A stretch of DNA of 53,593 bases from a virus (Duplodnaviria; Caudoviricetes), in the IMG/VR virus record IMGVR_UViG_3300031450_000204, positions 1 through 53,593 of that record. One strand, 5' to 3'. This document shows, piece by piece, positions 231 through 40,139 of the stretch (position 1 is its first letter; each line of letters opens with the position of its first letter). Made by a program: the position numbers and the translations under genes. A model generated the notes under the pieces. That model worked only from the letters and a program-made list of their open reading frames with translations. It did not search any database and had not been told where the DNA came from.

Positions 231-1172
231 ATGGCAAGTATCGCAAACCTCGACCTCGACCGGCTGCGCCTAGGCACCGGCAGTCACGAACCGGCAGACC
301 TCGCGGACGATTGCGACGGCACCGCCTGCCTGTGGGAAGCGATCGCATGGGCAACGGGTGCGGGTGCGACGAACGAGCCGTGGGACGACGACCCCGACTG
401 GGTAGGCACCCCCGTCCTGCGCGTCTACGGCCGCGACCTCAACGACTCCTTGCCCGACGACCGGCGGCAGGAACTGAAGGCGCTGATTCCCGACTTGGCC
501 GCTGTCACCCCCGACGACGGACTCGACGAACGCCGCAGCTACATGGCACTCGACTGGTTGATCCGGGTCTACACCCCGGCCTGGCTGCGGCTTGTCGACG
601 GGCTCGAGGTCCACGCGGACCGGCTCGCAAATGCGGCACAGATTGTCGACCTGGACACGGCCGAGGCTGTCGGTACCGCTGTCCGTAGCGCGGCGTGGGA
701 TGCGGTGCGGGTCGCGGCGGGGGATGCGGCGGGGGCTGCGGCGCGGGCTGCGGCGCGGGTCGCGGCGCGGGATGCGGCGGGGGATGCAGCGGGGGCTGCG
801 GCGCGGGTCGCGGCGGGGGATGCGGCGGGGGATGCGGCGCGGGATGCGGCGCGGGTCGCGGCGGGGGATGCGGCGCGGGTCGCGGCGCGGGTCGCGGCGG
901 GGGATGCGGCGCGGGCTGCGGCGCGGGCTGCGGCGCGGGTCGCGGCGGGGGATGCGGCGCGGGCTGCGGCGTGGGATGCGGCGCGGGTCGCGGCGGGGGA
1001 TGCAGCGTGGGATGCGGCGTGGGATGCGGCGCGGGATGCGGCGCGGGATGCGGCGCGGGTCGCGGCGGGGGATGCGGCGCGGGTCGCGCTAGCCCCAACC
1101 GTCACTGAACTCCAGACCTCAGCTATTGAGCTGTACCGCTCGATGATTCACCCCGAGCCGGTGTCGGCGTGA
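231..1172 (+). CDS. Actinophage hypothetical protein with AA(G/R/W)(D/A/V) tetrapeptide repeats
   Basis: ATG at 231 after AGGA; N-terminal GSH..CLWEA..WDDDP..LND.L.D..RQ.L segment, then Ala-rich repeat. Confidence 0.8.
   Translation: MASIANLDLDRLRLGTGSHEPADLADDCDGTACLWEAIAWATGAGATNEPWDDDPDWVGTPVLRVYGRDLNDSLPDDRRQELKALIPDLAAVTPDDGLDERRSYMALDWLIRVYTPAWLRLVDGLEVHADRLANAAQIVDLDTAEAVGTAVRSAAWDAVRVAAGDAAGAAARAAARVAARDAAGDAAGAAARVAAGDAAGDAARDAARVAAGDAARVAARVAAGDAARAAARAAARVAAGDAARAAAWDAARVAAGDAAWDAAWDAARDAARDAARVAAGDAARVALAPTVTELQTSAIELYRSMIHPEPVSA
690..1085 (+). repeat. About 33 tandem 12-bp units GCGGCG-NGG-GNY (coding)
   Basis: Directly visible tandem repeat inside 231..1172. Confidence 0.9.
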
Positions 1173-2941: not shown

Positions 2942-3520
2942 GTGACTACGACCACCGTCGCCTCAGCGGCCATGGCAGAGGAATGGCGGTCGATGGTCGG
3001 TTGGGAGTCGCTCTACGAGGTGTCAAGCTTTGGGCGAGTGCGGTCATTAGGCCGAACATTTACTACTTCGGCCGGCCGGGCGTATCGAGTGCGCGGCCGA
3101 CTCCTCAAGCCGGGCCGCGATCCCTCGGGCTACGCCGTGGTGTACCCATCACGAGGTGGGAGAACGACTGCGCCCAAAGTCCACGCGCTTGTTGCGGCGG
3201 CATTTATTGGTCCGCGGCCGGTGGATTTCGAGGTAGCCCACAACGACGGAGATAAGCACAATAATCACTACTCAAACTTGAGATACGCCACTCGGCTTGA
3301 CAATGTCGCAGACATGGCTTTACACGGCACCTTGCCGCGCGGAGCCCGGAATGGTCGGTCAAGGCTAGTCGAGCCCGAGATACTAGGAATGCTGCGACGA
3401 CTGAATGCGGGTGAGTCCCACCAGTCGATCGCGGACGACTTCGGTCTGTCTCGGCAGCACGTCTCGAAGGTTGATAGCGGTGCACGCTGGGGCTGGCTAA
3501 CTGGTCGAGGTGCAGCATGA
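2942..3520 (+). CDS. NUMOD4 + HNH homing endonuclease
   Basis: EEWRSMVGWESLYEVSSFGRVRSL (NUMOD4); VHALVAAAF...HNDGDKHNNHYSNL (HNH); lower GC than flanks. Confidence 0.9.
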   Translation: MTTTTVASAAMAEEWRSMVGWESLYEVSSFGRVRSLGRTFTTSAGRAYRVRGRLLKPGRDPSGYAVVYPSRGGRTTAPKVHALVAAAFIGPRPVDFEVAHNDGDKHNNHYSNLRYATRLDNVADMALHGTLPRGARNGRSRLVEPEILGMLRRLNAGESHQSIADDFGLSRQHVSKVDSGARWGWLTGRGAA

Positions 3521-4530
3521 CCCCCCCGCGTCTTGTCCTAAGCCACACCGCGCCGAGGAGCGACTGGCTCGCCGCCCGCCGGTGCGGCATCACCGCCACG
3601 AAGATCGCCGCGGTCGCGGGGGTCCACCCGTGGCTGTCAGCCCTCGAGGTCTACGACGACATGATCGGCGTCGCGGTCGACGTCGAGGAGAACACGGCGA
3701 TGCGCGCCGGCACGTTCCTCGAGCCGTTCATCTGCCGCGAGTGGGCCGCCGACACCGGCCGGGCCATCGCCCGCAGCGGGTTGTACGCCCACCCCGACCG
3801 GGCGTGGCAGATGGCGACCCCCGACCGGCTCGTGCTCAAGCCGGGCCGCACGTCCTGGTTCGGCCGGTGGGTCAACGTCGACAGTCTGCTCGAAGCGAAG
3901 ACGGCACTCGGCTGGGGTGCGCTCGCCTGGTCCGACGAGGTCCCTACCCACGTCCAGATGCAGGTGCAGTGGCAGCTCGCCGTTACCGGTCTGGACCGGG
4001 CATGGGTCGTCGCCCTCGCCGGTCCGCAGATCAAGCCGTTCGCCGTCGAACGCGACGACGAGCTGATCGCCGACCTGACCGACATCGGCGAGGCGTTCCT
4101 GCTCGATCACGTCGCGAGGAAGGTGCCGCCGACCCCGGATGGCACCGAGCGCACCGCCCGCTACCTGGCGCGGCGGACCCCGGCGGTAGCGGGTGCGACG
4201 ACGGTCCTCGACCCCGAGCAGTGGGCCGACCTCTACGAGACCTACTGGGGCGCGCATCGCCAGGCCGCCGAGCACGAGCAGGACAAGGCCGCCGCCGCTA
4301 ACCGGATGCGGCTGCTGCTCGGCTCAGCCGAGGAGGGCTACCTACCCGGCGAAACCAAGCCGGCGGTCACGTTCCGCGAGTCCCGCCCGGTCCGGTTCGA
4401 CGCCAAGGCGTTCGCCGCCGACCACCCGGACCTGTACGCCGCCTACCGCCGTCCGGCCAGCGAGCCGCAACGCACCCTGTCCCCCCGCAAGCCACCGCGC
4501 ACGTCCTCACGCAAGGAGCAGGCAGCATGA
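3517..4530 (+). CDS. YqaJ-like viral recombinase exonuclease (RecE-like)
   Basis: WLAARRCGITAT, GTFLEP, ATPDRL, LEAKT, QVQWQL motifs. Confidence 0.9.
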   Translation: MTPPRLVLSHTAPRSDWLAARRCGITATKIAAVAGVHPWLSALEVYDDMIGVAVDVEENTAMRAGTFLEPFICREWAADTGRAIARSGLYAHPDRAWQMATPDRLVLKPGRTSWFGRWVNVDSLLEAKTALGWGALAWSDEVPTHVQMQVQWQLAVTGLDRAWVVALAGPQIKPFAVERDDELIADLTDIGEAFLLDHVARKVPPTPDGTERTARYLARRTPAVAGATTVLDPEQWADLYETYWGAHRQAAEHEQDKAAAANRMRLLLGSAEEGYLPGETKPAVTFRESRPVRFDAKAFAADHPDLYAAYRRPASEPQRTLSPRKPPRTSSRKEQAA

Positions 4531-20908: not shown

Positions 20909-21057
20909 GGGTCACAGCGTTGTACGTCATCTACTGCCTGCTCGCCGTCGGCAACATCGTGGGCTTAGTCCAAGCGGTTCGCTACGGGGAATTCGGCTGG
21001 GGCGCCCTCGCTGTCACCGGACTAGCCGCATGCGGCTACATGCTGGTCTTCGGGTGA
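20905..21057 (+). CDS. Small two-TM membrane protein
   Basis: Two hydrophobic helices. Confidence 0.5.
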   Translation: MRVTALYVIYCLLAVGNIVGLVQAVRYGEFGWGALAVTGLAACGYMLVFG

Positions 21058-21188
21058 AGGTCTACATCGCGCTCGTCACCTGCGGCTGCTGCCACCTGCA
21101 GCTGACCTTGCGCCACGCCTGGCTCGCCGACGGCGGGTTCGACCGCCGGGTGATGCGGCTGCACCTGCGTCTGTGCGACGGCTGACTG

Positions 21189-21338
21189 TTAGAGCCGGCG
21201 CCACGCCTGGTTGTACGGCCGGAGCAGGCTGCGGGTGACCGTGCGGCGGGCTAGCCGTTTCGGCAGCGTGCCGCGCTTGAGCGCGTCGTAGTCGCCCATG
21301 GTCCTAGAGCTGAGGTACAGCAGCCTGCGAAGGCTCAT
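21189..21338 (-). CDS. Small basic protein (49 aa), last gene of the RAMP cassette
   Basis: AGGAGGAG RBS, ATGA overlap; MSLRRLLYLSSRTMGDYDALKRGTLPKRLARR... Confidence 0.65.
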   Translation of the reverse strand: MSLRRLLYLSSRTMGDYDALKRGTLPKRLARRTVTRSLLRPYNQAWRRL

Positions 21339-21514
21339 CGCTCTCCTCCTGTGAGTAGCCGGTCGATCTCCGACCGGGGGATACGGATCTTGCGTCCGAC
21401 GTGGACCGCGTGCAGGTCACCCCGCTTGACCATGTCGTAGATCGTCCACTTGGCAACCCGCAGCGCGGCGGCAACCTCGTCGACGGTCAGGACCAGCGGT
21501 AGGTGGTCAGTCAC
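21335..21514 (-). CDS. Excisionase-like HTH DNA-binding protein (59 aa)
   Basis: LTVDEVAAALRVAKWTIYDMVKRGDLHAVHVGRKIRIPRSEIDRLL; not in the ORF track, read manually. Confidence 0.85.
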   Translation of the reverse strand: MTDHLPLVLTVDEVAAALRVAKWTIYDMVKRGDLHAVHVGRKIRIPRSEIDRLLTGGER

Positions 21515-22082
21515 CGGACGGTTCCGAGTTAGTGGCAGGCAGCAGCTTCATCAGTTGCTCCAGCCGCTCCAAGCGCTCCGCGTGCTCCTCCGACGTCATC
21601 TCGACAGTCTCGGTCCGCGCGGTGATCGCCGCGACCTTCTCGGCGAGTTTCTTGTTCCTGACGTCGAGCCGCTGAACCATGTCGCTCTGCATCTGGAAGG
21701 CGTAGGCGACGACCTCGAACGCCTTCCGGGTCTCGACGTCGATCTGGTTGAAGTCGACGTTTACGACCTTCGACCGGCCGCGCTTGAGCGCGTGACCTGC
21801 CCTGCGCTGCTGCGCCCGGGCGAGCCCCAGGTGCTCCTTGGCTTGCACCACCCGGTAGCCGACGTTCATGATCGGTTCGATGGCGCGGCGGTCGACCTCC
21901 TCGTGTTCCTTCGCGGCGCGGCGCATCGCCATCTGGATGCCGTGCCGGTCGTCGGCCGGGTCGAGTTCAAGCGCCTCACCGAGCGACTCGTAGGTGAGGA
22001 CGCCGTCGACGGGGGTCCGGTTCAGCAGCTCGTAGACGACGCGCCAGCGGGCCTTGTCTCCGACCGGCTGGAAGGGGCTCAC
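21507..22082 (-). CDS. Accessory protein of the RAMP cassette (winged-HTH-like N-terminus, coiled-coil C-terminus)
   Basis: GTGA-coupled to the RAMP gene; VLTYESLGEAL...AMRRA...NVGYRVV. Confidence 0.75.
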   Translation of the reverse strand: MSPFQPVGDKARWRVVYELLNRTPVDGVLTYESLGEALELDPADDRHGIQMAMRRAAKEHEEVDRRAIEPIMNVGYRVVQAKEHLGLARAQQRRAGHALKRGRSKVVNVDFNQIDVETRKAFEVVAYAFQMQSDMVQRLDVRNKKLAEKVAAITARTETVEMTSEEHAERLERLEQLMKLLPATNSEPSGD

Positions 22083-22669
22083 CGGCCGGCCGGCTCAAGG
22101 GTGACGGTGAACCGGCCGTACCGAGGACGCCAGTCGCCGATGGCGGTGTAGCGGCCGGCGTCGTCGGCGATGGTTCGGAGGTCTTCGAGGTTCAGCTCGT
22201 GGGTGTCGAGCGCGAGCGTGGCCTGGCATGCCCACTGCCGGAAGATCGGCCGGGTCCGCATGATCTTCGAGCTTTTGGACGCGCTGGGGTTGCCGTTCGC
22301 GACGGCCCGGTGCACAAAGTTCGCGTCGGCATAGAGTTCCTCGGCGGTGCGTGGACCCTTGTAGGCGAGGAGGTTCTGGTCCGTGGGTACGAGCACCGAG
22401 CGTTTGACGAGTGCCCCCTTGTTCTGTCGTCCGCCGGCCATCGCCAGGCAGGACAGGATGTTCGCCCCGGGCAGGTAGGGACCTTCGGGGCCGATGTACA
22501 GCCCGGCGAAGAACTCGATCCGCGCCATCACCTCGTGGTCGGCGTCGGTCTTCTTCCTCTTGCCCTTGACCTCGTTGAACGACTGGCTCCAGGTGTTCAG
22601 CGGATCGACCATCTGGCTGTTGTGCATCAACAGCTCCGAGGTCCCCGTCATGGTCATGATCAGGTCCAT
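22079..22669 (-). CDS. Stand-alone RAMP/Cas7-like RNA-binding protein (196 aa)
   Basis: GGAGG RBS; RAMP-like pattern MTGTSELLMH (beta1), PYLPGANILSCL (P.IPG..KG.R equivalent), C-terminal G-loop AIGDWRPRYGRFTV. Confidence 0.75.
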   Translation of the reverse strand: MDLIMTMTGTSELLMHNSQMVDPLNTWSQSFNEVKGKRKKTDADHEVMARIEFFAGLYIGPEGPYLPGANILSCLAMAGGRQNKGALVKRSVLVPTDQNLLAYKGPRTAEELYADANFVHRAVANGNPSASKSSKIMRTRPIFRQWACQATLALDTHELNLEDLRTIADDAGRYTAIGDWRPRYGRFTVTLEPAGR

Positions 22670-22698
22670 CTTTGTTCCTCCACGTTTGGTTGGAACCC

Positions 22699-22743
22699 AC
22701 GCCTGGCCTAGCCGCGCCCCGCCACGCCCCGCCTTGCCGTGCC
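22699..22743 (-). ncRNA. GGC-NN pentamer array 2 (9 units), putative guide RNA in the leader of the RAMP gene
   Basis: Minus strand: GGCac GGCaa GGCgg GGCgt GGCgg GGCgc GGCta GGCca GGCgt, then GGG. Confidence 0.75.
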
Positions 22744-22754
22744 CTGCAATAGAC

Positions 22755-22783
22755 ACCATAGCGTCTCGCGTCGTATGTGACAA
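22755..22783 (-). promoter_or_regulatory. Sigma70-type promoter TTGTCA-N17-TATGGT with operator-like motif (22763-22781) over the spacer and -35
   Basis: -35 at 22778-22783, -10 at 22755-22760; predicted start a few nt before array 2. Confidence 0.75.
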
Positions 22784-22802
22784 GTAACGCGGTGGACAGC
22801 AT

Positions 22803-22836
22803 GAAGGCCCGGCCGGATTTCTCCGGCCGGGCCTTC
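22803..22836 (-). terminator. Perfect 15-bp stem with GAAA tetraloop at the 3' end of array 1
   Basis: GAAGGCCCGGCCGGA-GAAA-TCCGGCCGGGCCTTC; no U-tract. Confidence 0.7.
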
Positions 22837-22854
22837 CCACGCCTTGCCCTTCCC

Positions 22855-22924
22855 ACGCCTTGCCCTGCCCAGCCTCGCCGTGCCCAGCCTCGCCGTGCCC
22901 AGCCTCGCCGTGCCACGCCGCGCC
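22855..22924 (-). ncRNA. GGC-NN pentamer array 1 (14 units), putative guide RNA
   Basis: Minus-strand NN = gc gt ac ga tg ac ga tg ac ga tg ag aa gt; TAGCGT -10-like box at 22934-22939 upstream, hairpin downstream. Confidence 0.75.
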
Positions 22925-22965
22925 GAGGTGCTCACGCTAGACCCGACACGCCGACCGCGTCTACG

Positions 22966-22984
22966 GTCCTGCGCAACAGGCGAC
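22966..22984. promoter_or_regulatory. 19-bp operator-like motif GTCCTGCG-CAA-CAGGCGAC between array 1 and the capsid gene
   Basis: Motif family match; TACTGT -10-like box downstream on +. Confidence 0.6.
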
Positions 22985-23112
22985 GGGATGCGCTACTGTC
23001 CGTCGTAGATCGAGCAGCCGGCCCTTCGAGGGTCTGGCCGCCGGGACGGGCTGTAGAGCCGCCGGGGCGCTCCACCACCCCCGCATTCTCTCGCCTGTCC
23101 CGGAGGATCATC

Positions 23113-25074
23113 ATGGCTGAGCAGACCCCCGACCGGCTGACCCGCATCAACGACCTGTCCGGTCGGATCGGTGAGCTGACCGCCGACGAGCTTGCCGAAC
23201 TCGGCAACCTGCTCGCCGACGAGATCGACGCCGCCGCCTCAGCGGAGCCGACCGACGAGATCCTCGGTCACATCAACACCGTCGCCGACGCCGCGGAGCA
23301 GGTCGCCGCCGAACGGACCCGCCGTGACGAGGTCGCCGCCGAGCAGACCGCGCGACGGGACGAGGCGCTCGGCCGGGCGCAGGCCGCCCGGGAGCGGATC
23401 GCCCCCCCGGCGGCCGCCGTCGAGCAGGCACCTGAGGCGCGGGCCGAGGGTGACCCGGCCCCAGCGGAGACTGCCGAGCAGCGTGAGGCCGTCGCTGCAT
23501 CCGCCAAGCCCAAGCCGATCCGGATCTCCCAAGTCGTCGCCTCAGCCGCCGGCCGCCGCGACCCCGAGCGGGAGCGCCCCGACGACCCCCAGTCCGACGG
23601 CCGGGTCCGCGCGTCGCTCACCGCAGGCGGCACCCCCACCGGGCCGGCACTCGACGCGCAGACCTTCACCGAGTCGTGGGCGCAGCGCCTCGACAGCCTG
23701 CGGCACACCCCACCCTCATCCGACGGCACCCGCGTCGTCGTCGCGTCCGCCCGCTGGGACTACCCCGAGGCCAACGACCTGCGCCACCGCGACGCCGACA
23801 TGGTCACCGAGCGGATGGACAACGTCGTCACCCCGATGGTCGCCTCAGGCGGCATCTGCCGCCCGGTGAACGTGGACTACGCCATTCCGACCTGGGCCAA
23901 CCTGGAGCGTCCCGTCCGGGACAGCCTGCCGTCGTTCCAGGCGACCCGCGGTGGAATCCACTACGTCGTCCCGACCCCGTTCGACATGAGCGTGTTCGGC
24001 CCGGCGGTGGGGATCTGGACCAACGCCAATGACATCAACCCCGGCGGCCCGGGGACCGGCGTCAACAGCACCCGGACCGTCACCGACGGGGTCACTGTCG
24101 TCGGCACGACCCTCACGTCGGCTACCGCCGCGTTCACCTTCGCCGACGTCGGCCGGTCAGTCGCCGGTGGTTCGATCCCTGCTGGCGCGACCATCGTCTC
24201 GGTGCAGTCCGGCACTTCGGTCACCCTGTCGGCTGCCGGGGCCGCCGCCGCGACTGGGGTCACCGTCGCGATCTCCGGTGTCGGTACCGGCCCGACGGTC
24301 AAGCCCTGCATCGAGATGAACTGCGGCACCGAGATGGAGGTGCTGGTCGAGGCCATCACCCAGTGCGTCACCATCAGCAACTTCCGGGCCCGGTTCAACC
24401 CCGAGCAGGTCGCCAACTTCCTGCAGTACGTGGGGCAGGCATGGGCCGTCACCGCCGAGATCGAACTGCTCCGGCAGATGCGCGCGTTCGCCAAGCACGT
24501 GTCCGGGACGCAGCTGTTCGGCTTCGCCCGCGACTCCTTGGTCACCCTCTCGCTGATCAACGCCTACTTCCGGGACAAGTACCGGATGTCGCAGAACACG
24601 ATGCTCCGCGTCGTGCTCAAGCGGTGGGTGAAGGACGCGGTCCGTGCCGACCTGACGAAGGCCGCGTTCCCCTACGAGGGCGGCGACGGCTACAACAGCC
24701 TGTCGGTGCCGGACGCGGCGATCAACCAGTGGTTCGCCGACCGGAACATGGTCGTCACCTGGGCGTTGGACAGCGACGTTGCCGACCAGAACTTCACCAA
24801 CCAGGCACCGGGCACCGTCGCCAACCCGGCGACGCTGGTCGGCTTCCCGGCGGTGACCCGGATGCTGGTCTACCCGGAGGGGACCTACCAGTTCCTCGAC
24901 GGCGGCCAGCTTGACCTCGGTGTCGTCCGCGACTCGACGCTGAACGCGGTCAACAAGTTCCAGATCTTCTCCGAGTCCTTCGAGGGTGTCGCGCCCCGCG
25001 GCTTTGAAGCCCTCGACTTCTCTGCCGTGTTCCGGGTCAACGGCGCCGCAGCCGGCACCGTCGCCCCCGCCTAA
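23113..25074 (+). CDS. Major capsid protein (hexamer type) with fused N-terminal scaffold-like coiled coil
   Basis: GGAGG RBS; ASGGIC.P...Y, PVRDSLP.FQATRGGI, FNPE, GG.LDLGVVRDS.LN..N.F..F.E.FE. Confidence 0.88.
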   Translation: MAEQTPDRLTRINDLSGRIGELTADELAELGNLLADEIDAAASAEPTDEILGHINTVADAAEQVAAERTRRDEVAAEQTARRDEALGRAQAARERIAPPAAAVEQAPEARAEGDPAPAETAEQREAVAASAKPKPIRISQVVASAAGRRDPERERPDDPQSDGRVRASLTAGGTPTGPALDAQTFTESWAQRLDSLRHTPPSSDGTRVVVASARWDYPEANDLRHRDADMVTERMDNVVTPMVASGGICRPVNVDYAIPTWANLERPVRDSLPSFQATRGGIHYVVPTPFDMSVFGPAVGIWTNANDINPGGPGTGVNSTRTVTDGVTVVGTTLTSATAAFTFADVGRSVAGGSIPAGATIVSVQSGTSVTLSAAGAAAATGVTVAISGVGTGPTVKPCIEMNCGTEMEVLVEAITQCVTISNFRARFNPEQVANFLQYVGQAWAVTAEIELLRQMRAFAKHVSGTQLFGFARDSLVTLSLINAYFRDKYRMSQNTMLRVVLKRWVKDAVRADLTKAAFPYEGGDGYNSLSVPDAAINQWFADRNMVVTWALDSDVADQNFTNQAPGTVANPATLVGFPAVTRMLVYPEGTYQFLDGGQLDLGVVRDSTLNAVNKFQIFSESFEGVAPRGFEALDFSAVFRVNGAAAGTVAPA

Positions 25075-39400: not shown

Positions 39401-40139
39401 CGCGGCGCATCACCTGACGCACCCCCGTCATCACCCGCTCCATCACCTGCAGCACCCGAGTCACCACGCCGCGCATCACGCTGGCTGGTCGGCGCTCACC
39501 CGGCTGCACCACGCTGGCTGGTCGGCGCTCGCCCGGCTCCATCACCTGCAGCACCCGAGTCACCACGCCGCGCATCACGCTGGCTGGTCGGCGCTCACCC
39601 GGCTGCACCACGCTGGCTGGTCGGCGCTCGCCCGGCTGCATCACCTGCAGCACCCGAGTCACCACGCCGCGCATCACGCTGGCTGGTCGGCGCTCACCCG
39701 GCTGCACCACGCTGGCTGGTCGGCGCTCGCCCGGCTGCACCACCTGCAGCACCCGAGTCACCACGCCGCGCACCACGCTGGCTGGTCGGCCCTGGCCCGG
39801 CTCCACCACCCCCATCACTGGTCGGCGCTCCAGCGGGCTCACCACCCGCTCCACTGGTCGGCACTTGAGCGGCTGCACCACCCGCACCACTACCGTCGTC
39901 ACCCCCGCGTGTTCGACACCGGCGGCTACCTCGAGAGCGGAGCGGTCGGCGTCAACCTGTCCGGCCGACGGGAACGGGTCCTGAACCCTGACGAGACCGC
40001 GACCTACGACCGGACCCGCGGCAGGACCGGGACCACCGTGCATCAGAACAACCACTTCAACGGCGTCGACCTACCGACCGCCCAAGCCCAGGCAGCCCGC
40101 GAGCTGACGTTGGCGCTCGCCGGGGCAGGGGTCGGCTGA
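33441..40139 (+). CDS. Tape measure protein (2232 aa) with NlpC/P60 and lytic transglycosylase domains and His-rich tail
   Basis: TP901-like core, ANPIG motif, W/F 11-residue repeats, DCSGLV..HVGIY, QSESGG..GLMQ. Confidence 0.93.
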   Translation: MIVGEASILIRPITAGFGKQLLEGADKELAASGATAGSRFGGMFAKGLAGIGIATAAIGIAAIKMGSDYQRSLLMIHTQAGATGENLGQITKQIFAMAPAVGFGPKALVDALYHIESVGYRGAQAMDILKIAAQGAKIGHEDLEKTANSLVATMASGITGFHGAAQAMGVLDAIIGAGNMRMDGLNAAIGTGLFASAQTFGISIQSVGAALAFMTDRGSGAQESATRLRMSIALMAAPSAAASKIMGTLGLSTTEVHSRTTAMSEALKKAHITTSMLASDLRKPDGFEVALRHLKTALADSGVSAVTASAIISRAFGGGRSGATIMAMYGNLDVLKGKFDQITRTSNNFGQSWAATQKTASFQFSRFTALVETGLTRLGMFLLPQVTRATKGLVDGVIAAGPVISRAWDSIMGGFRNPGAKLGASASVFNAVSPLNAILLSAGQNIRKFSDLLLPALRSAGSAIMGALGPTWDLIRNLARDLAPLAGLLLKVFAGAVIVGIRAFAVAVRDVLTPMIRFAGSLVGFLGKLAGNTAFQALAVGVAVLLVPFGALLVVLKGMELATAANLLITKAWTVATNIAKEATIAFRFAVWLLNAAWEANPIGVVVLALTALAAGLVFAYEKSKAFRDIVDSVGRVFRTLWDAITGGAAAQEKVKRFFSDLPGMILRGVEAGGRALADFGKRIPGWIMSGLGAAGGFGKKLLDMVVSGLATGGQLLADVGRRIPGWLWDGIKGAVNLGVGLLNLIHEGIQSGGRVVTDVAKKIPGWILDGIKSAVTSIPSFFANLFTHLFDGGGGGGGGGKGNEGAKKAGKGIVASIIGGLTGAAKDLLDWFTKLPGKIAGWVGSIDFGAIGKKILTLVGHAFQDAGTILKVAGFLALGLAAVGLAVVLILPAIGLAIAFALVTALLHALGTNWSKIGQFFTGAWNGIKSSAIEGMHAVGGAVSHGAEQIAGFFTRMWHDVTTFFRVGWLAITAIATSLWHDVTGVFNRIKTDVSNIVTDILAFIDRHWRLLLVIFTGPIGLVIVIVDYFHKQIGAFFTQMWHDVSGFVERMWHDVTTFFHVGALAVAAIAASSYQAVTGFVMRMRDDVNTFVSRMWHDVTGFFYVGWLAVTAIVTSLWRDVTAWVTRMWHDVSGFVVRMWNDVTAFFHVGYLAVIAIVTSLWNTVVDLFTRLWHDVTGWVTRMWTDVTTFFHVGAMAVTAIVTSLWRTVVDLFTRLWTDVSNWVTRMWHDVITFIMRMAVDAWDIVRPFVTRIVGGFGDLWTGATGFASRLWHDVAGFFGRMRDDVVGIFDDLVTKAGQVWDRVKDLVAVPIRWVIENPYDKGIVPLIRGIGDILHEPGMQNLAPLHFAGGGAVPGNHDRDDVPLYGTPGEVMVDKPTVARHGGPNLLMRALGMTGGGGTGGHYAVGGPVLPPGLNFQGLSSFNPNSLQGSLTAGTATGAAAGRQFVTKQDALRISGGKADTGILGRIVHDIAHPTDLLGDLKKLALGALAIGATPVVHTIEGAADGALKSLGEPGRWMDKEVHNIGDALLSLLAGKDAAYNAAQAAAAAAGGGAGLLQVGNGTDIVNDARKYLGQQYILGGDPYGGGGTDCSGLVDRVMADLGHKLPGRPLTWDLVKMGTAVNYADALPGDLVFTNYGEGGIPGPGHVGIYEGGGRMIDDPNPSSHVREEAVWETPGAVRRLLVDHLPTAVAAAAVNGSWADVVYQALKMENLPASAAGGVLRLIQSESGGDANAQNNWDSNARAGTPSQGLMQLIPGTFAANHWPGTSDNIRDPLANIAAGINYAVKTYGIGMLMGGGRHDGTGRYVGYEQGTMFVPSTGPATLHQGEIVIPRGPSDTIRQHMATGGVVHHPRHHLTHHPLHHAAHHAAAHHASSYAALYRHAVELYAKLITDQLHHLSPATIRSDIARIAVANRAADVARGHPLAHHHATHHLAHHRLHHPAHHLTHHPHHHAAHHPHHVLHPHHPLHPHHRVLHPHHPLHHAAHHLTHPRHHPLHHLQHPSHHAAHHAGWSALTRLHHAGWSALARLHHLQHPSHHAAHHAGWSALTRLHHAGWSALARLHHLQHPSHHAAHHAGWSALTRLHHAGWSALARLHHLQHPSHHAAHHAGWSALARLHHPHHWSALQRAHHPLHWSALERLHHPHHYRRHPRVFDTGGYLESGAVGVNLSGRRERVLNPDETATYDRTRGRTGTTVHQNNHFNGVDLPTAQAQAARELTLALAGAGVG
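39441..39802 (+). repeat. 99-bp (33-aa) tandem repeat, about 3.7 copies, in the His-rich tail
   Basis: HHLQHPSHHAAHHAGWSALTRLHHAGWSALARL starting at 39441, 39540, 39639, 39738. Confidence 0.9.

What the first reader, a model, noticed from the sequence alone, without database searches (positions are those of the whole stretch)
22670..22783. Array 2 is the 5' leader of the RAMP mRNA behind a near-consensus promoter
TTGTCA-N17-TATGGT predicts a start just before 9 GGC-NN units (AC AA GG GT GG GC TA CA GT), which end about 30 nt before the start codon. Both arrays end in the same AGGCGTGGG, a likely conserved 3' handle. Inference: this is a second guide with different specificity, and protein coating its own leader could autoregulate translation.
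Basis: partly seen in the sequence, partly recalled or inferred. Interest (0 to 1): 0.78.

Follow-up and report, generated by a model that had tools for sequence, protein, structure and literature searches.

The report
Phage VIPR guide RNA in leader
The five-base repeat tract in front of this phage gene is a guide RNA of a VIPR system, a CRISPR-related viral DNA-silencing system first described in 2026, so it is a new example of a known kind rather than a new kind of thing.

Summary
On the minus strand, a sigma-70-like promoter (TTGTCA-N17-TATGGT, 22783..22755) is followed 8 nt later by ten perfect C-NN-GG units (22746..22697). Then come 27 nt holding GGAGGA, and the ATG (22669) of a 196-aa protein.

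That protein is a Vipr RAMP. A profile of 46 homologues matches PDB chain 36pp_D, "SUSP1 Vipr protein", at E 4.5e-57. The five residues that contact GGY in SUSP1 Vipr are conserved, and the AF2 model resembles Cas7/Csm3. A vap1-like gene follows.

The locus is therefore a VIPR system (bioRxiv 10.64898/2026.04.26.720920), and array 2 is a vrRNA that also forms the vipr mRNA leader.

Comparison supports the architecture:
- 20 of the 80 best IMG/VR relatives have an array ending 40 nt or less before the vipr start.
- The 14-mer TATGGTGTCTATTG abuts the first repeat unit in two distant loci.

Three points are not supported or not settled:
- Autoregulation is untested. The hairpin overlapping the ribosome-binding site is no more stable than shuffled sequence.
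- AGGCGTGGG is not a family-wide handle.
- No natural target and no RNA data were found.

Verdict: new member of a known kind, with modest interest.

The parts
22755..22783 (-). Predicted promoter: -35 TTGTCA (22783..22778), 17-nt spacer, -10 TATGGT (22760..22755)
   Evidence: It is the only sigma-70-like match in 21300..23400; shuffles give a mean of 0.1. The 14-mer TATGGTGTCTATTG (22760..22747) is found exactly, and directly before the first repeat unit, in loci L188 and L227 as well, and nowhere else in 1.68 Mb of held sequence. The transcription start is predicted, not mapped.
22697..22746 (-). vrRNA 2 repeat tract ('array 2'): ten C-NN-GG units with NN = AG AC AA GG GT GG GC TA CA GT
   Evidence: All ten units have GG and all ten have a pyrimidine at Y. 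Ten units falls within the published 9-16 and within the 7-37 range of 268 arrays.
22670..22696 (-). 27-nt linker with the ribosome-binding site GGAGGA (22681..22676); weak hairpin GUUCC..GGAAC
   Evidence: Read directly from the sequence. Fold energy -12.1 kcal/mol, z -0.49; 60 of 200 shuffles fold at least as well. There is no canonical structured tail.
22079..22669 (-). vipr: 196-aa Vipr RAMP protein (P0001)
   Evidence: PDB 36pp_D 'SUSP1 Vipr protein': E 8.4e-25 with the single sequence and 4.5e-57 with the profile. It matches phrog_4652. AF2 pLDDT is 93.9. Foldseek top matches are Csm3/Cas7 chains.
21507..22082 (-). vap1-like accessory gene (P0121, 191 aa); its GTG start overlaps the vipr stop
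   Evidence: BLASTP to the gene after vipr in other loci: L008/L010/L011 at 1e-57 to 1e-58, LittleE gp33 at 8e-19, MakoManhole gp77 ('DNA binding protein') at 2e-12, wV8 gp94 at 3.5e-4. No Pfam family matches. Weak winged-helix leads only, TM below 0.5.
21335..21514 (-). Third gene of the minus-strand operon: 59-aa HTH_17 (excisionase-type helix-turn-helix) protein, overlapping the vap stop
   Evidence: Pfam PF12728 at E 2.1e-15. Whether it belongs to the VIPR system is an inference from position alone.
22827..22927 (-). vrRNA 1 repeat tract ('array 1'): 16 units at 22927..22848, plus a staggered second copy of CAAGG CGTGG GAAGG; it holds a 15-nt unit repeated three times
22803..22836 (-). Tail hairpin of vrRNA 1: 15-bp GC-rich stem with a GAAA loop and no U run after it
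   Evidence: Fold energy -41.2 kcal/mol, z -5.06, 0 of 200 shuffles as good. Hairpins of different sequence sit in the same place, directly after the last unit, in L008, L010 and L011 (z -3.06 to -4.49).

Best explanation
The feature is the promoter-proximal guide RNA (vrRNA) of a type II-like VIPR system carried by a high-GC provirus.

Proposed sequence of events:
1. Transcription from TTGTCA-N17-TATGGT is predicted to start at or 1-2 nt before the first of ten C-NN-GG units.
2. The same transcript runs on through a 27-nt linker holding the ribosome-binding site into vipr, a vap1-like gene and a small HTH gene. The repeat tract is therefore both a guide RNA and the 5' leader of the vipr mRNA.
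3. By homology with the solved SUSP1 system, one Vipr protomer binds each repeat. It sequesters GGY and exposes the NN pair.
4. The resulting helical filament reads double-stranded DNA of the form AGxACxAAxGGxGTxGGxGCxTAxCAxGT (1-nt skip) and silences it, most likely in a rival phage or other mobile element.

Array 1 is a separate guide with a different code and a canonical hairpin tail.

Shown here: the protein family, the conserved contact residues, the repeat grammar, the gene order, and comparative recurrence of the promoter motif and of leader-embedded arrays. Inferred: the transcription start, co-transcription, Vipr binding, DNA targeting and silencing.
For: Protein:
- A profile of 46 homologues matches PDB 36pp_D 'SUSP1 Vipr protein' at E 4.5e-57; the single sequence gives 8.4e-25.
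- The residues that the structural preprint says hold GGY (H17, R138, D177, W178, R179; section read) align with H16, R140, D179, W180, R181. H16 and R140 are invariant, and D179 and R181 at least 90% conserved, in alignment A1.
- The AF2 model has pLDDT 93.9. Its best PDB matches are Cas7-family chains: type III-D, Csm3 and type VII Cas7, E 9e-6 to 1e-4, TM 0.43-0.53.

RNA grammar:
- Ten of ten units fit YNNGG.
- Strict arrays lie on the vipr strand in 23 of 36 related loci and on the opposite strand in 0 of 36. There are none in 1.2 Mb of background. The 36 include near-duplicates (L013/L026, L019/L020, L024/L025).
- Over 268 distinct arrays, interior NN entropy is about 3.9 of 4 bits.

Leader architecture:
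- In the 80 best IMG/VR relatives, 20 have an array ending 40 nt or less before the vipr start, 23 at 41-150 nt, 1 further upstream, 34 only downstream, and 2 have none.
- In L188 the same 14-mer heads a two-array tract that runs up to the vipr ribosome-binding site.
- In the preprint's constructs, SUSP1 vrRNA1 and vipr were expressed as one amplified unit from one inducible promoter (methods passage).

Promoter. The exact 14-mer TATGGTGTCTATTG abuts the first unit in the window, L188 and L227 only.

Accessory gene: it is homologous to the gene after vipr in every compared locus.

Close relatives: related rock-metagenome contigs keep vipr together with this array. Two runs from two studies show an extra 35 nt, which is 7 units, inside it.
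Against: - No RNA evidence: no listed sequencing run is on record as RNA. The start site, co-transcription and any processing are predictions.
- No natural target was found by the published rule, so guide function here rests on homology.
- Array 2 lacks the structured tail that array 1 and the Streptomyces relatives carry. The preprint describes a tail as part of a vrRNA, so array 2 may not mature like a canonical guide.
- The -35 element is not shared with L188 or L227 (my reading of the printed flanks). The conserved 14-mer could therefore be a 5' RNA element rather than a -10 region.
- The contigs laid come from metagenomes at 80% likeness, which makes them weak evidence.
Confidence: 0.8

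Rival explanations
1. Autogenous translational control. Vipr polymerises on the repeat tract of its own mRNA, 15 nt upstream of the ribosome-binding site, and blocks or tunes translation of vipr. This may happen in addition to, or instead of, release of a free guide.
For: Geometry: the last unit ends 15 nt before GGAGGA and 27 nt before the ATG. Leader-embedded arrays with an 18-33 nt linker, too short for a structured tail, recur in 20 of 80 relatives. A predicted hairpin pairs GUUCC with the GGAAC of the ribosome-binding region.
Against: The hairpin is not better than shuffles: z -0.49, with 60 of 200 shuffles as good. The leader arrays of L001, L005 and L027 show no hairpin pairing the ribosome-binding site. 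Nothing here measures binding or translation. Recurrence of the layout is equally explained by simple co-expression of guide and protein. The word stem 'autoregul' has 0 occurrences in the main text of three VIPR preprints; supplements could not be seen.
Confidence: 0.25
2. Array 2 is not an independent transcription unit. It is transcribed by read-through from a start upstream of array 1 as part of one long precursor, and the TTGTCA/TATGGT match is not a working promoter.
For: The hairpin after array 1 has no U run, so it need not terminate transcription. In other loci (L176, L177, L185, L188) the leader array directly follows the tail of a preceding vrRNA with no promoter-like site between them.
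Against: This is the only sigma-70-like site in 2.1 kb. Its -10 plus the next 8 nt is conserved exactly at the head of arrays in two distant loci.
Confidence: 0.12
3. Array 2 is a decaying or duplicated remnant without function, or a DNA-level element such as protein-binding iterons or a G-rich structure.
For: No target was found. There is no canonical tail. Array content turns over among close relatives: a 35-nt gain, and loss of array 1 in one contig.
Against: Ten of ten units are perfect, whereas degenerate arrays in other loci carry broken units. Arrays are strictly co-oriented with vipr, 23 against 0, which fits an RNA and not a symmetric DNA site. The array is retained in every related contig that spans it.
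Confidence: 0.05

Closest known systems
Type II VIPR systems (Escherichia phage SUSP1 and a Pseudomonas fulva prophage): bioRxiv 10.64898/2026.04.26.720920 (Results, Discussion and methods sections 20, 26, 27 read), 10.64898/2026.04.26.720927 (abstract and section 5 read), 10.64898/2026.10.15.759431 (abstract and section 17 read)
   Same: A small Vipr RAMP with the same GGY-contact residues; a vap1-like second gene; YNNGG tandem tracts of 10 and 16 units on the same strand; one vrRNA upstream of vipr; carried by a phage or provirus.
   Different: - The host range is high-GC (70% GC provirus; the nearest named relative is in a Streptomyces genome).
- Vipr is only 28.6% identical to most Felixounavirus copies.
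- Both guides lie upstream and none lies after vap.
- The tail of array 1 is a plain GC hairpin with a GAAA loop, not the pseudoknot described for the SUSP1 clade.
- Array 2 has no structured tail and abuts the ribosome-binding site. In wV8, a Felixounavirus in whose genus SUSP1 was placed from recall, the gap to the start codon is 108 nt.
Class 1 CRISPR-Cas backbone proteins (Cas7/Csm3) with crRNA
   Same: The RRM core, G-rich loop and thumb fold. One protomer binds per short RNA register, and bases are flipped at a fixed period.
   Different: There is no CRISPR repeat-spacer array near the locus. There is a single RAMP gene. The register is 5 nt, not 6. Specificity lies in NN pairs and not in a contiguous spacer.
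TRAP on the trp leader and CsrA on GGA leaders (recalled from general knowledge; no call made)
   Same: An oligomeric protein that reads short repeats spaced a few nucleotides apart in an mRNA leader can control translation. This is the analogy behind the autoregulation idea.
   Different: The protein folds are unrelated. No evidence here shows that Vipr regulates translation.

Membership tests
VIPR system | A Vipr protein: a minimal RAMP homologous to the SUSP1 or P. fulva Vipr | tested here: met
   PDB 36pp_D 'SUSP1 Vipr protein' at E 4.5e-57 with the profile and 8.4e-25 with the single sequence, covering residues 5-193. The fold resembles Csm3/Cas7.
VIPR system | Residues that sequester GGY (SUSP1 H17, R138, D177, W178, R179) | tested here: met
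   They align with H16, R140, D179, W180 and R181 of P0001. H16 and R140 are invariant, and D179 and R181 at least 90% conserved, in 46 homologues.
VIPR system | Tandem YNNGG (GGY/NN) repeats, at least 4 units and typically 9-16, beside vipr on the same strand | tested here: met
   There are 10 and 16 units. There are no strict arrays elsewhere in the window or in 1.2 Mb of background.
VIPR system | NN hypervariable while GGY is conserved | tested here: inconclusive
   Met at family level: interior NN entropy is about 3.9 of 4 bits over 268 arrays. For close relatives of this locus, only unit-sized gains and losses could be seen; the letters inside the arrays were not listed.
VIPR system | A conserved, structured 3' tail after the repeat tract | tested here: not met
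   For array 2, the subject of this finding: z -0.49, and the linker runs straight into the ribosome-binding site. Array 1 of the same locus meets it (z -5.06). The preprint itself reports other array architectures (staggered, ribozyme-interspersed), so I read this as a variant and not an exclusion.
VIPR system | An accessory vap gene next to vipr | tested here: met
   P0121 is homologous to the gene after vipr in the compared loci, including wV8 gp94.
VIPR system | The vrRNA is expressed and co-purifies with Vipr | not testable with these tools
   No RNA run is listed.
VIPR system | A natural DNA target that obeys the 1-nt-skip rule | tested here: inconclusive
   - Window: best 14 of 20 and 20 of 32, which is control level.
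- IMG/VR: 0 exact hits for the 10-unit and 9-unit patterns. The 8-unit patterns gave 4 and 3 hits, rescored at 16-18 of 20, in contigs of 34-58% GC.
- 401 Streptomyces genomes: 44 places at 3 or fewer mismatches, against about 37 for the reversed control by my count.
CRISPR-Cas (class 1) | A repeat-spacer array and further cas genes | tested here: not met
   No such array lies near the locus. The neighbouring genes are phage structural genes, vap and an HTH gene.

The most novel reading that the evidence does not exclude
Leader-embedded, tail-less vrRNAs form a distinct functional class. Because the repeat tract ends 18-33 nt before the vipr start codon, each transcript must either be coated by Vipr or be translated. 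This would give the system built-in negative feedback that matches Vipr supply to guide supply. The layout recurs in a quarter of this clade (20 of 80 relatives).
Probability: 0.25. Interest if true: 0.6.

Novelty: new member of a known kind. Interest (0 to 1): 0.35.

Why it matters
The locus extends VIPR, a very recently described RNA-guided DNA-silencing system thought to be related to the ancestry of CRISPR, into a high-GC provirus from a rock community.

It also shows a simple, recurrent layout: promoter, then guide, then ribosome-binding site, then vipr. That layout gives a clean test case for two open questions: how vrRNA 5' and 3' ends are made when there is no tail, and whether Vipr controls its own synthesis.

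For annotation, the repeat tracts can be mistaken for coding sequence. The longest ORF here starts at a GTG inside the arrays, and a Gordonia phage gene model runs through two arrays.

Tried and rejected
- Rfam: no family for the arrays or tails. The window at 21000..23600 and five related loci gave only sub-threshold chance matches.
- ARAGORN: no tRNA in six of seven loci, and one 'tRNA-???' in L002.
- Pfam and PADLOC on P0001: nothing.
- RNA evidence: no RNA holder is listed among 16 runs.
- Self-targeting in the window: none above control level.
- IMG/VR pattern scans:
  - The 10-unit and 9-unit array 2 patterns gave 0 hits.
  - The 8-unit patterns gave 4 and 3 hits at chance level.
  - The array 1 core (ACnGAnTG three times) hit at least 120 generic 9-bp tandem repeats. 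The best full-array score was 25 of 32.
  - The array 1 3' part gave 2 hits that did not reach 23 of 32.
- 401 Streptomyces genomes: no excess over the reversed-pattern control. One recurrent 17-of-20 site is a conserved chromosomal sequence counted in about 11 genomes.
- Scan of held loci for rival-VIPR targets: the top array 2 rows were the loci preselected, so that result is circular. Array 1 was at control level.
- Early ideas dropped once the protein was identified: a TRAP-like or CsrA-like sponge RNA, DNA iterons, and a Rho loading site on the C-rich plus strand.
- Closest relatives (proteins P0002 at 91% and P0003 at 83% identity): their DNA could not be fetched, so NN turnover at short distance could not be read.
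- Supplements of the VIPR preprints could not be seen. They may already show leader-embedded or tRNA-like architectures.

Full report
**What is there.** The window is a whole IMG/VR provirus record of 53,593 bases with 70% GC. It carries terminase, portal, a major head protein gene from about 23104 and a tape-measure gene, all on the plus strand. A short operon lies in reverse orientation between the head-assembly genes and the major head gene:
- a 196-aa protein, P0001 (22669..22079);
- a 191-aa protein, P0121 (22082..21507), whose start overlaps the first gene's stop;
- a 59-aa HTH_17 protein (21514..21335).

Codon-position GC shows that 22670 to about 23090 is non-coding.

On the minus strand this gap reads as follows:
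- array 1: 16 five-base units at 22927..22848, plus a staggered repeat of its last three units;
- a 15-bp GC hairpin with a GAAA loop (22836..22803);
- TTGTCA-N17-TATGGT (22783..22755), then 8 nt;
- array 2: ten perfect C-NN-GG units at 22746..22697;
- a 27-nt linker with GGAGGA, then the ATG.

**Is it more than chance?** Yes. Runs of four or more GGCNN units occur only at these two places in the window, on either strand. Under a strict rule (8 or more GG units, at least 80% pyrimidine at Y), the rest of the window and 1,206,037 bases of unrelated loci hold none. The promoter is the only sigma-70-like match in 2.1 kb, against 0.1 expected.

**What it is.** P0001 has no Pfam or PADLOC match and falls in phrog_4652, a family of unknown function. 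tblastn finds it in 130 phage records, including Felixounavirus, Gordonia, Mycobacterium and Pseudomonas phages, all below 60% identity. In all seven records that I opened, a 146- to 267-aa gene follows it directly. In six of those seven, five-base GG-repeat tracts flank the pair on the same strand by eye. The seventh, Trine, has them inside a gene model.

A profile of 46 homologues matches PDB chain 36pp_D, named "SUSP1 Vipr protein", at E 4.5e-57. That led to the preprint that defines VIPR systems (Results and Discussion read). A VIPR system comprises:
- a small ancestral RAMP (Vipr);
- an accessory vap gene;
- vrRNAs made of 9-16 YNNGG repeats followed by a 3' tail.

The NN pairs read double-stranded DNA with one base skipped per repeat, and this silences rival phages and satellites.

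The structural companion paper names the residues that hold GGY: H17, R138, D177, W178 and R179. In the pairwise alignment these fall on H16, R140, D179, W180 and R181 of P0001. The AF2 model (pLDDT 93.9) finds Csm3 and other Cas7-family chains as its best solved matches. P0121 is homologous to the gene after vipr in every compared locus, including the Felixounavirus one.

**Is array 2 the vipr leader behind its own promoter?** No RNA data exist for this sequence, so I tested the idea by comparison.
- In the 80 best IMG/VR relatives of P0001, a same-strand array ends 40 nt or less before the vipr start in 20. It ends at 41-150 nt in 23 and further upstream in 1. Arrays lie only downstream in 34, and 2 have none. 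In the 20, the linker is 18-33 nt and holds little more than a ribosome-binding site.
- The 14-mer TATGGTGTCTATTG, which is the -10 hexamer plus the next 8 nt, occurs exactly in only three independent places in 1.68 Mb of held sequence. These are this window, L188 (Vipr 45% identical) and L227 (38% identical). Each time it lies directly before the first repeat unit.
- Other leader arrays are headed either by a different -10-like element 8-14 nt upstream (L182, L193, L201, L219) or by the tail of a preceding vrRNA (L176, L177, L181, L185, L188).
- In L188 the 14-mer heads a two-array tract that runs up to the vipr ribosome-binding site. There the arrays are plainly upstream in the same transcription direction, with no other promoter-like site seen.
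- A TANNNT hexamer (TAGCGT, 22939..22934) lies 6 nt before array 1. This is my reading of the sequence only.

**What remains unsupported.**
- The shared AGGCGTGGG is real but weak. Over 268 distinct arrays the last unit is constrained (2.89 bits against about 3.9 inside), but towards C-A-(A/T/G)-GG and not CGTGG. Some 3' end constraint exists, though not the one proposed.
- Array 2 has no canonical tail. The hairpin that pairs GUUCC with the GGAAC of the ribosome-binding region is no more stable than shuffles (z -0.49). Array 1's tail (z -5.06) and the equivalent hairpins of the Streptomyces relatives (z -3.06 to -4.49) stand out clearly.
- The leader arrays of L001, L005 and L027 show no pairing with the ribosome-binding site.
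- Translational autoregulation is therefore a reasonable idea from geometry alone, and I put it at about one in four.
- The stem "autoregul" does not occur in the main text of three VIPR preprints. The fourth paper was searched only for VIPR, vrRNA and tRNA-like. Supplements were closed.

**Targets.** I applied the published NNx rule (methods read).
- Neither array matches the provirus itself above shuffled-order controls: 14 of 20 and 20 of 32. This agrees with the preprint's report of no self-targeting.
- Exact 10-unit and 9-unit patterns of array 2 have no hit in IMG/VR.
- The 8-unit patterns give 4 and 3 hits, which rescore at 16-18 of 20 in contigs of 34-58% GC.
- In 401 Streptomyces genomes there are 44 places with 3 or fewer mismatches, against about 37 for the reversed control by my count of the table.
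- Array 1 contains a 15-nt unit three times, so its code holds a 9-bp triple repeat. That core hits at least 120 generic tandem repeats, none extending beyond 25 of 32.
- The natural targets are unknown.

**Close relatives.** Contigs of four other rock-metagenome runs, laid at 80% likeness, cover the locus.
- One 1,346-nt contig bridges vap, vipr, array 2 and part of array 1.
- Two runs from two studies carry an extra 35 nt, which is seven units, inside array 2.
- One contig skips 22817..22943 and so lacks array 1.

This is weak evidence, but it fits unit-wise turnover of guides with the leader array retained.

**Verdict.** The system, however, is already described: four 2026 preprints, and several earlier notes of this scan. 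This is a new member from a high-GC provirus. Its leader-embedded, tail-less guide is a layout that is common in its clade and that I did not find discussed in the parts of the papers I could read.

Noticed in passing
L001 1668-1710, 3001-3045, 3119-3160; L002 about 3085-3360; L003 about 2225-2420 and 3685-3880; L005 about 2360-2410: In actinophage VIPR loci (Gordonia phages MakoManhole and Trine, Mycobacterium phage LittleE, prophiBWHA-1), each vrRNA ends in a miniature tRNA-like module. It has a 5-6 bp acceptor-like stem, an 11-12 nt linker, and a T-arm with a TTCGAnT loop. This may be a cue for host tRNA-processing enzymes. The window has none. The word 'tRNA' has 0 occurrences in the main text of three VIPR preprints. 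Earlier notes of this scan report the same thing (e1-6055562).
   Followed up: partly
L002 3091-3894 (Gordonia phage Trine gp40): The annotated 267-aa gene model runs through two YNNGG arrays (3131-3195 and 3255-3304) and their tRNA-like tails. Homology to other vap proteins begins only at about residue 106-130. The first ~105 residues are therefore probably translated guide RNA genes. ARAGORN calls a 'tRNA-???' at 3289-3357.
   Followed up: partly
L007 2250-2307 and 3643-3700 (Escherichia phage wV8): The 58-bp direct repeats annotated 'DR_4' in the 2008 record flank the vipr-vap pair. The copy at 3643-3700 starts at the end of a GGT-NN array and covers the hairpin plus T-run that follows it. 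It corresponds to a vrRNA tail.
   Followed up: partly
window 21335-21514 (-): A 59-aa HTH_17 (excisionase-type) gene overlaps the vap stop and occupies the place where the Streptomyces relatives L008, L010 and L011 carry their vrRNA arrays. Whether it works with VIPR is unknown.
   Followed up: partly
window 22855-22899 (-), inside array 1: Array 1 holds CACGG CGAGG CTGGG three times in a row. Its decoded target would therefore contain a 9-bp triple repeat. This is either a recent slippage duplication or a guide aimed at a tandem repeat.
   Followed up: partly
L021 about 612-945 and L027 about 2655-2986: In two metagenome loci, a small ORF with CxxC...HH...CxxCH motifs (HNH-like, by eye only) lies between the last upstream array and vipr. 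The array abuts that ORF's ribosome-binding site instead.
   Followed up: no
window 690-1088 (+) and 39437-39809 (+): Long in-frame tandem repeats: period 12/48 in the first ORF, and period 33/99 in the tape-measure gene. They are unrelated to the finding.
   Followed up: no
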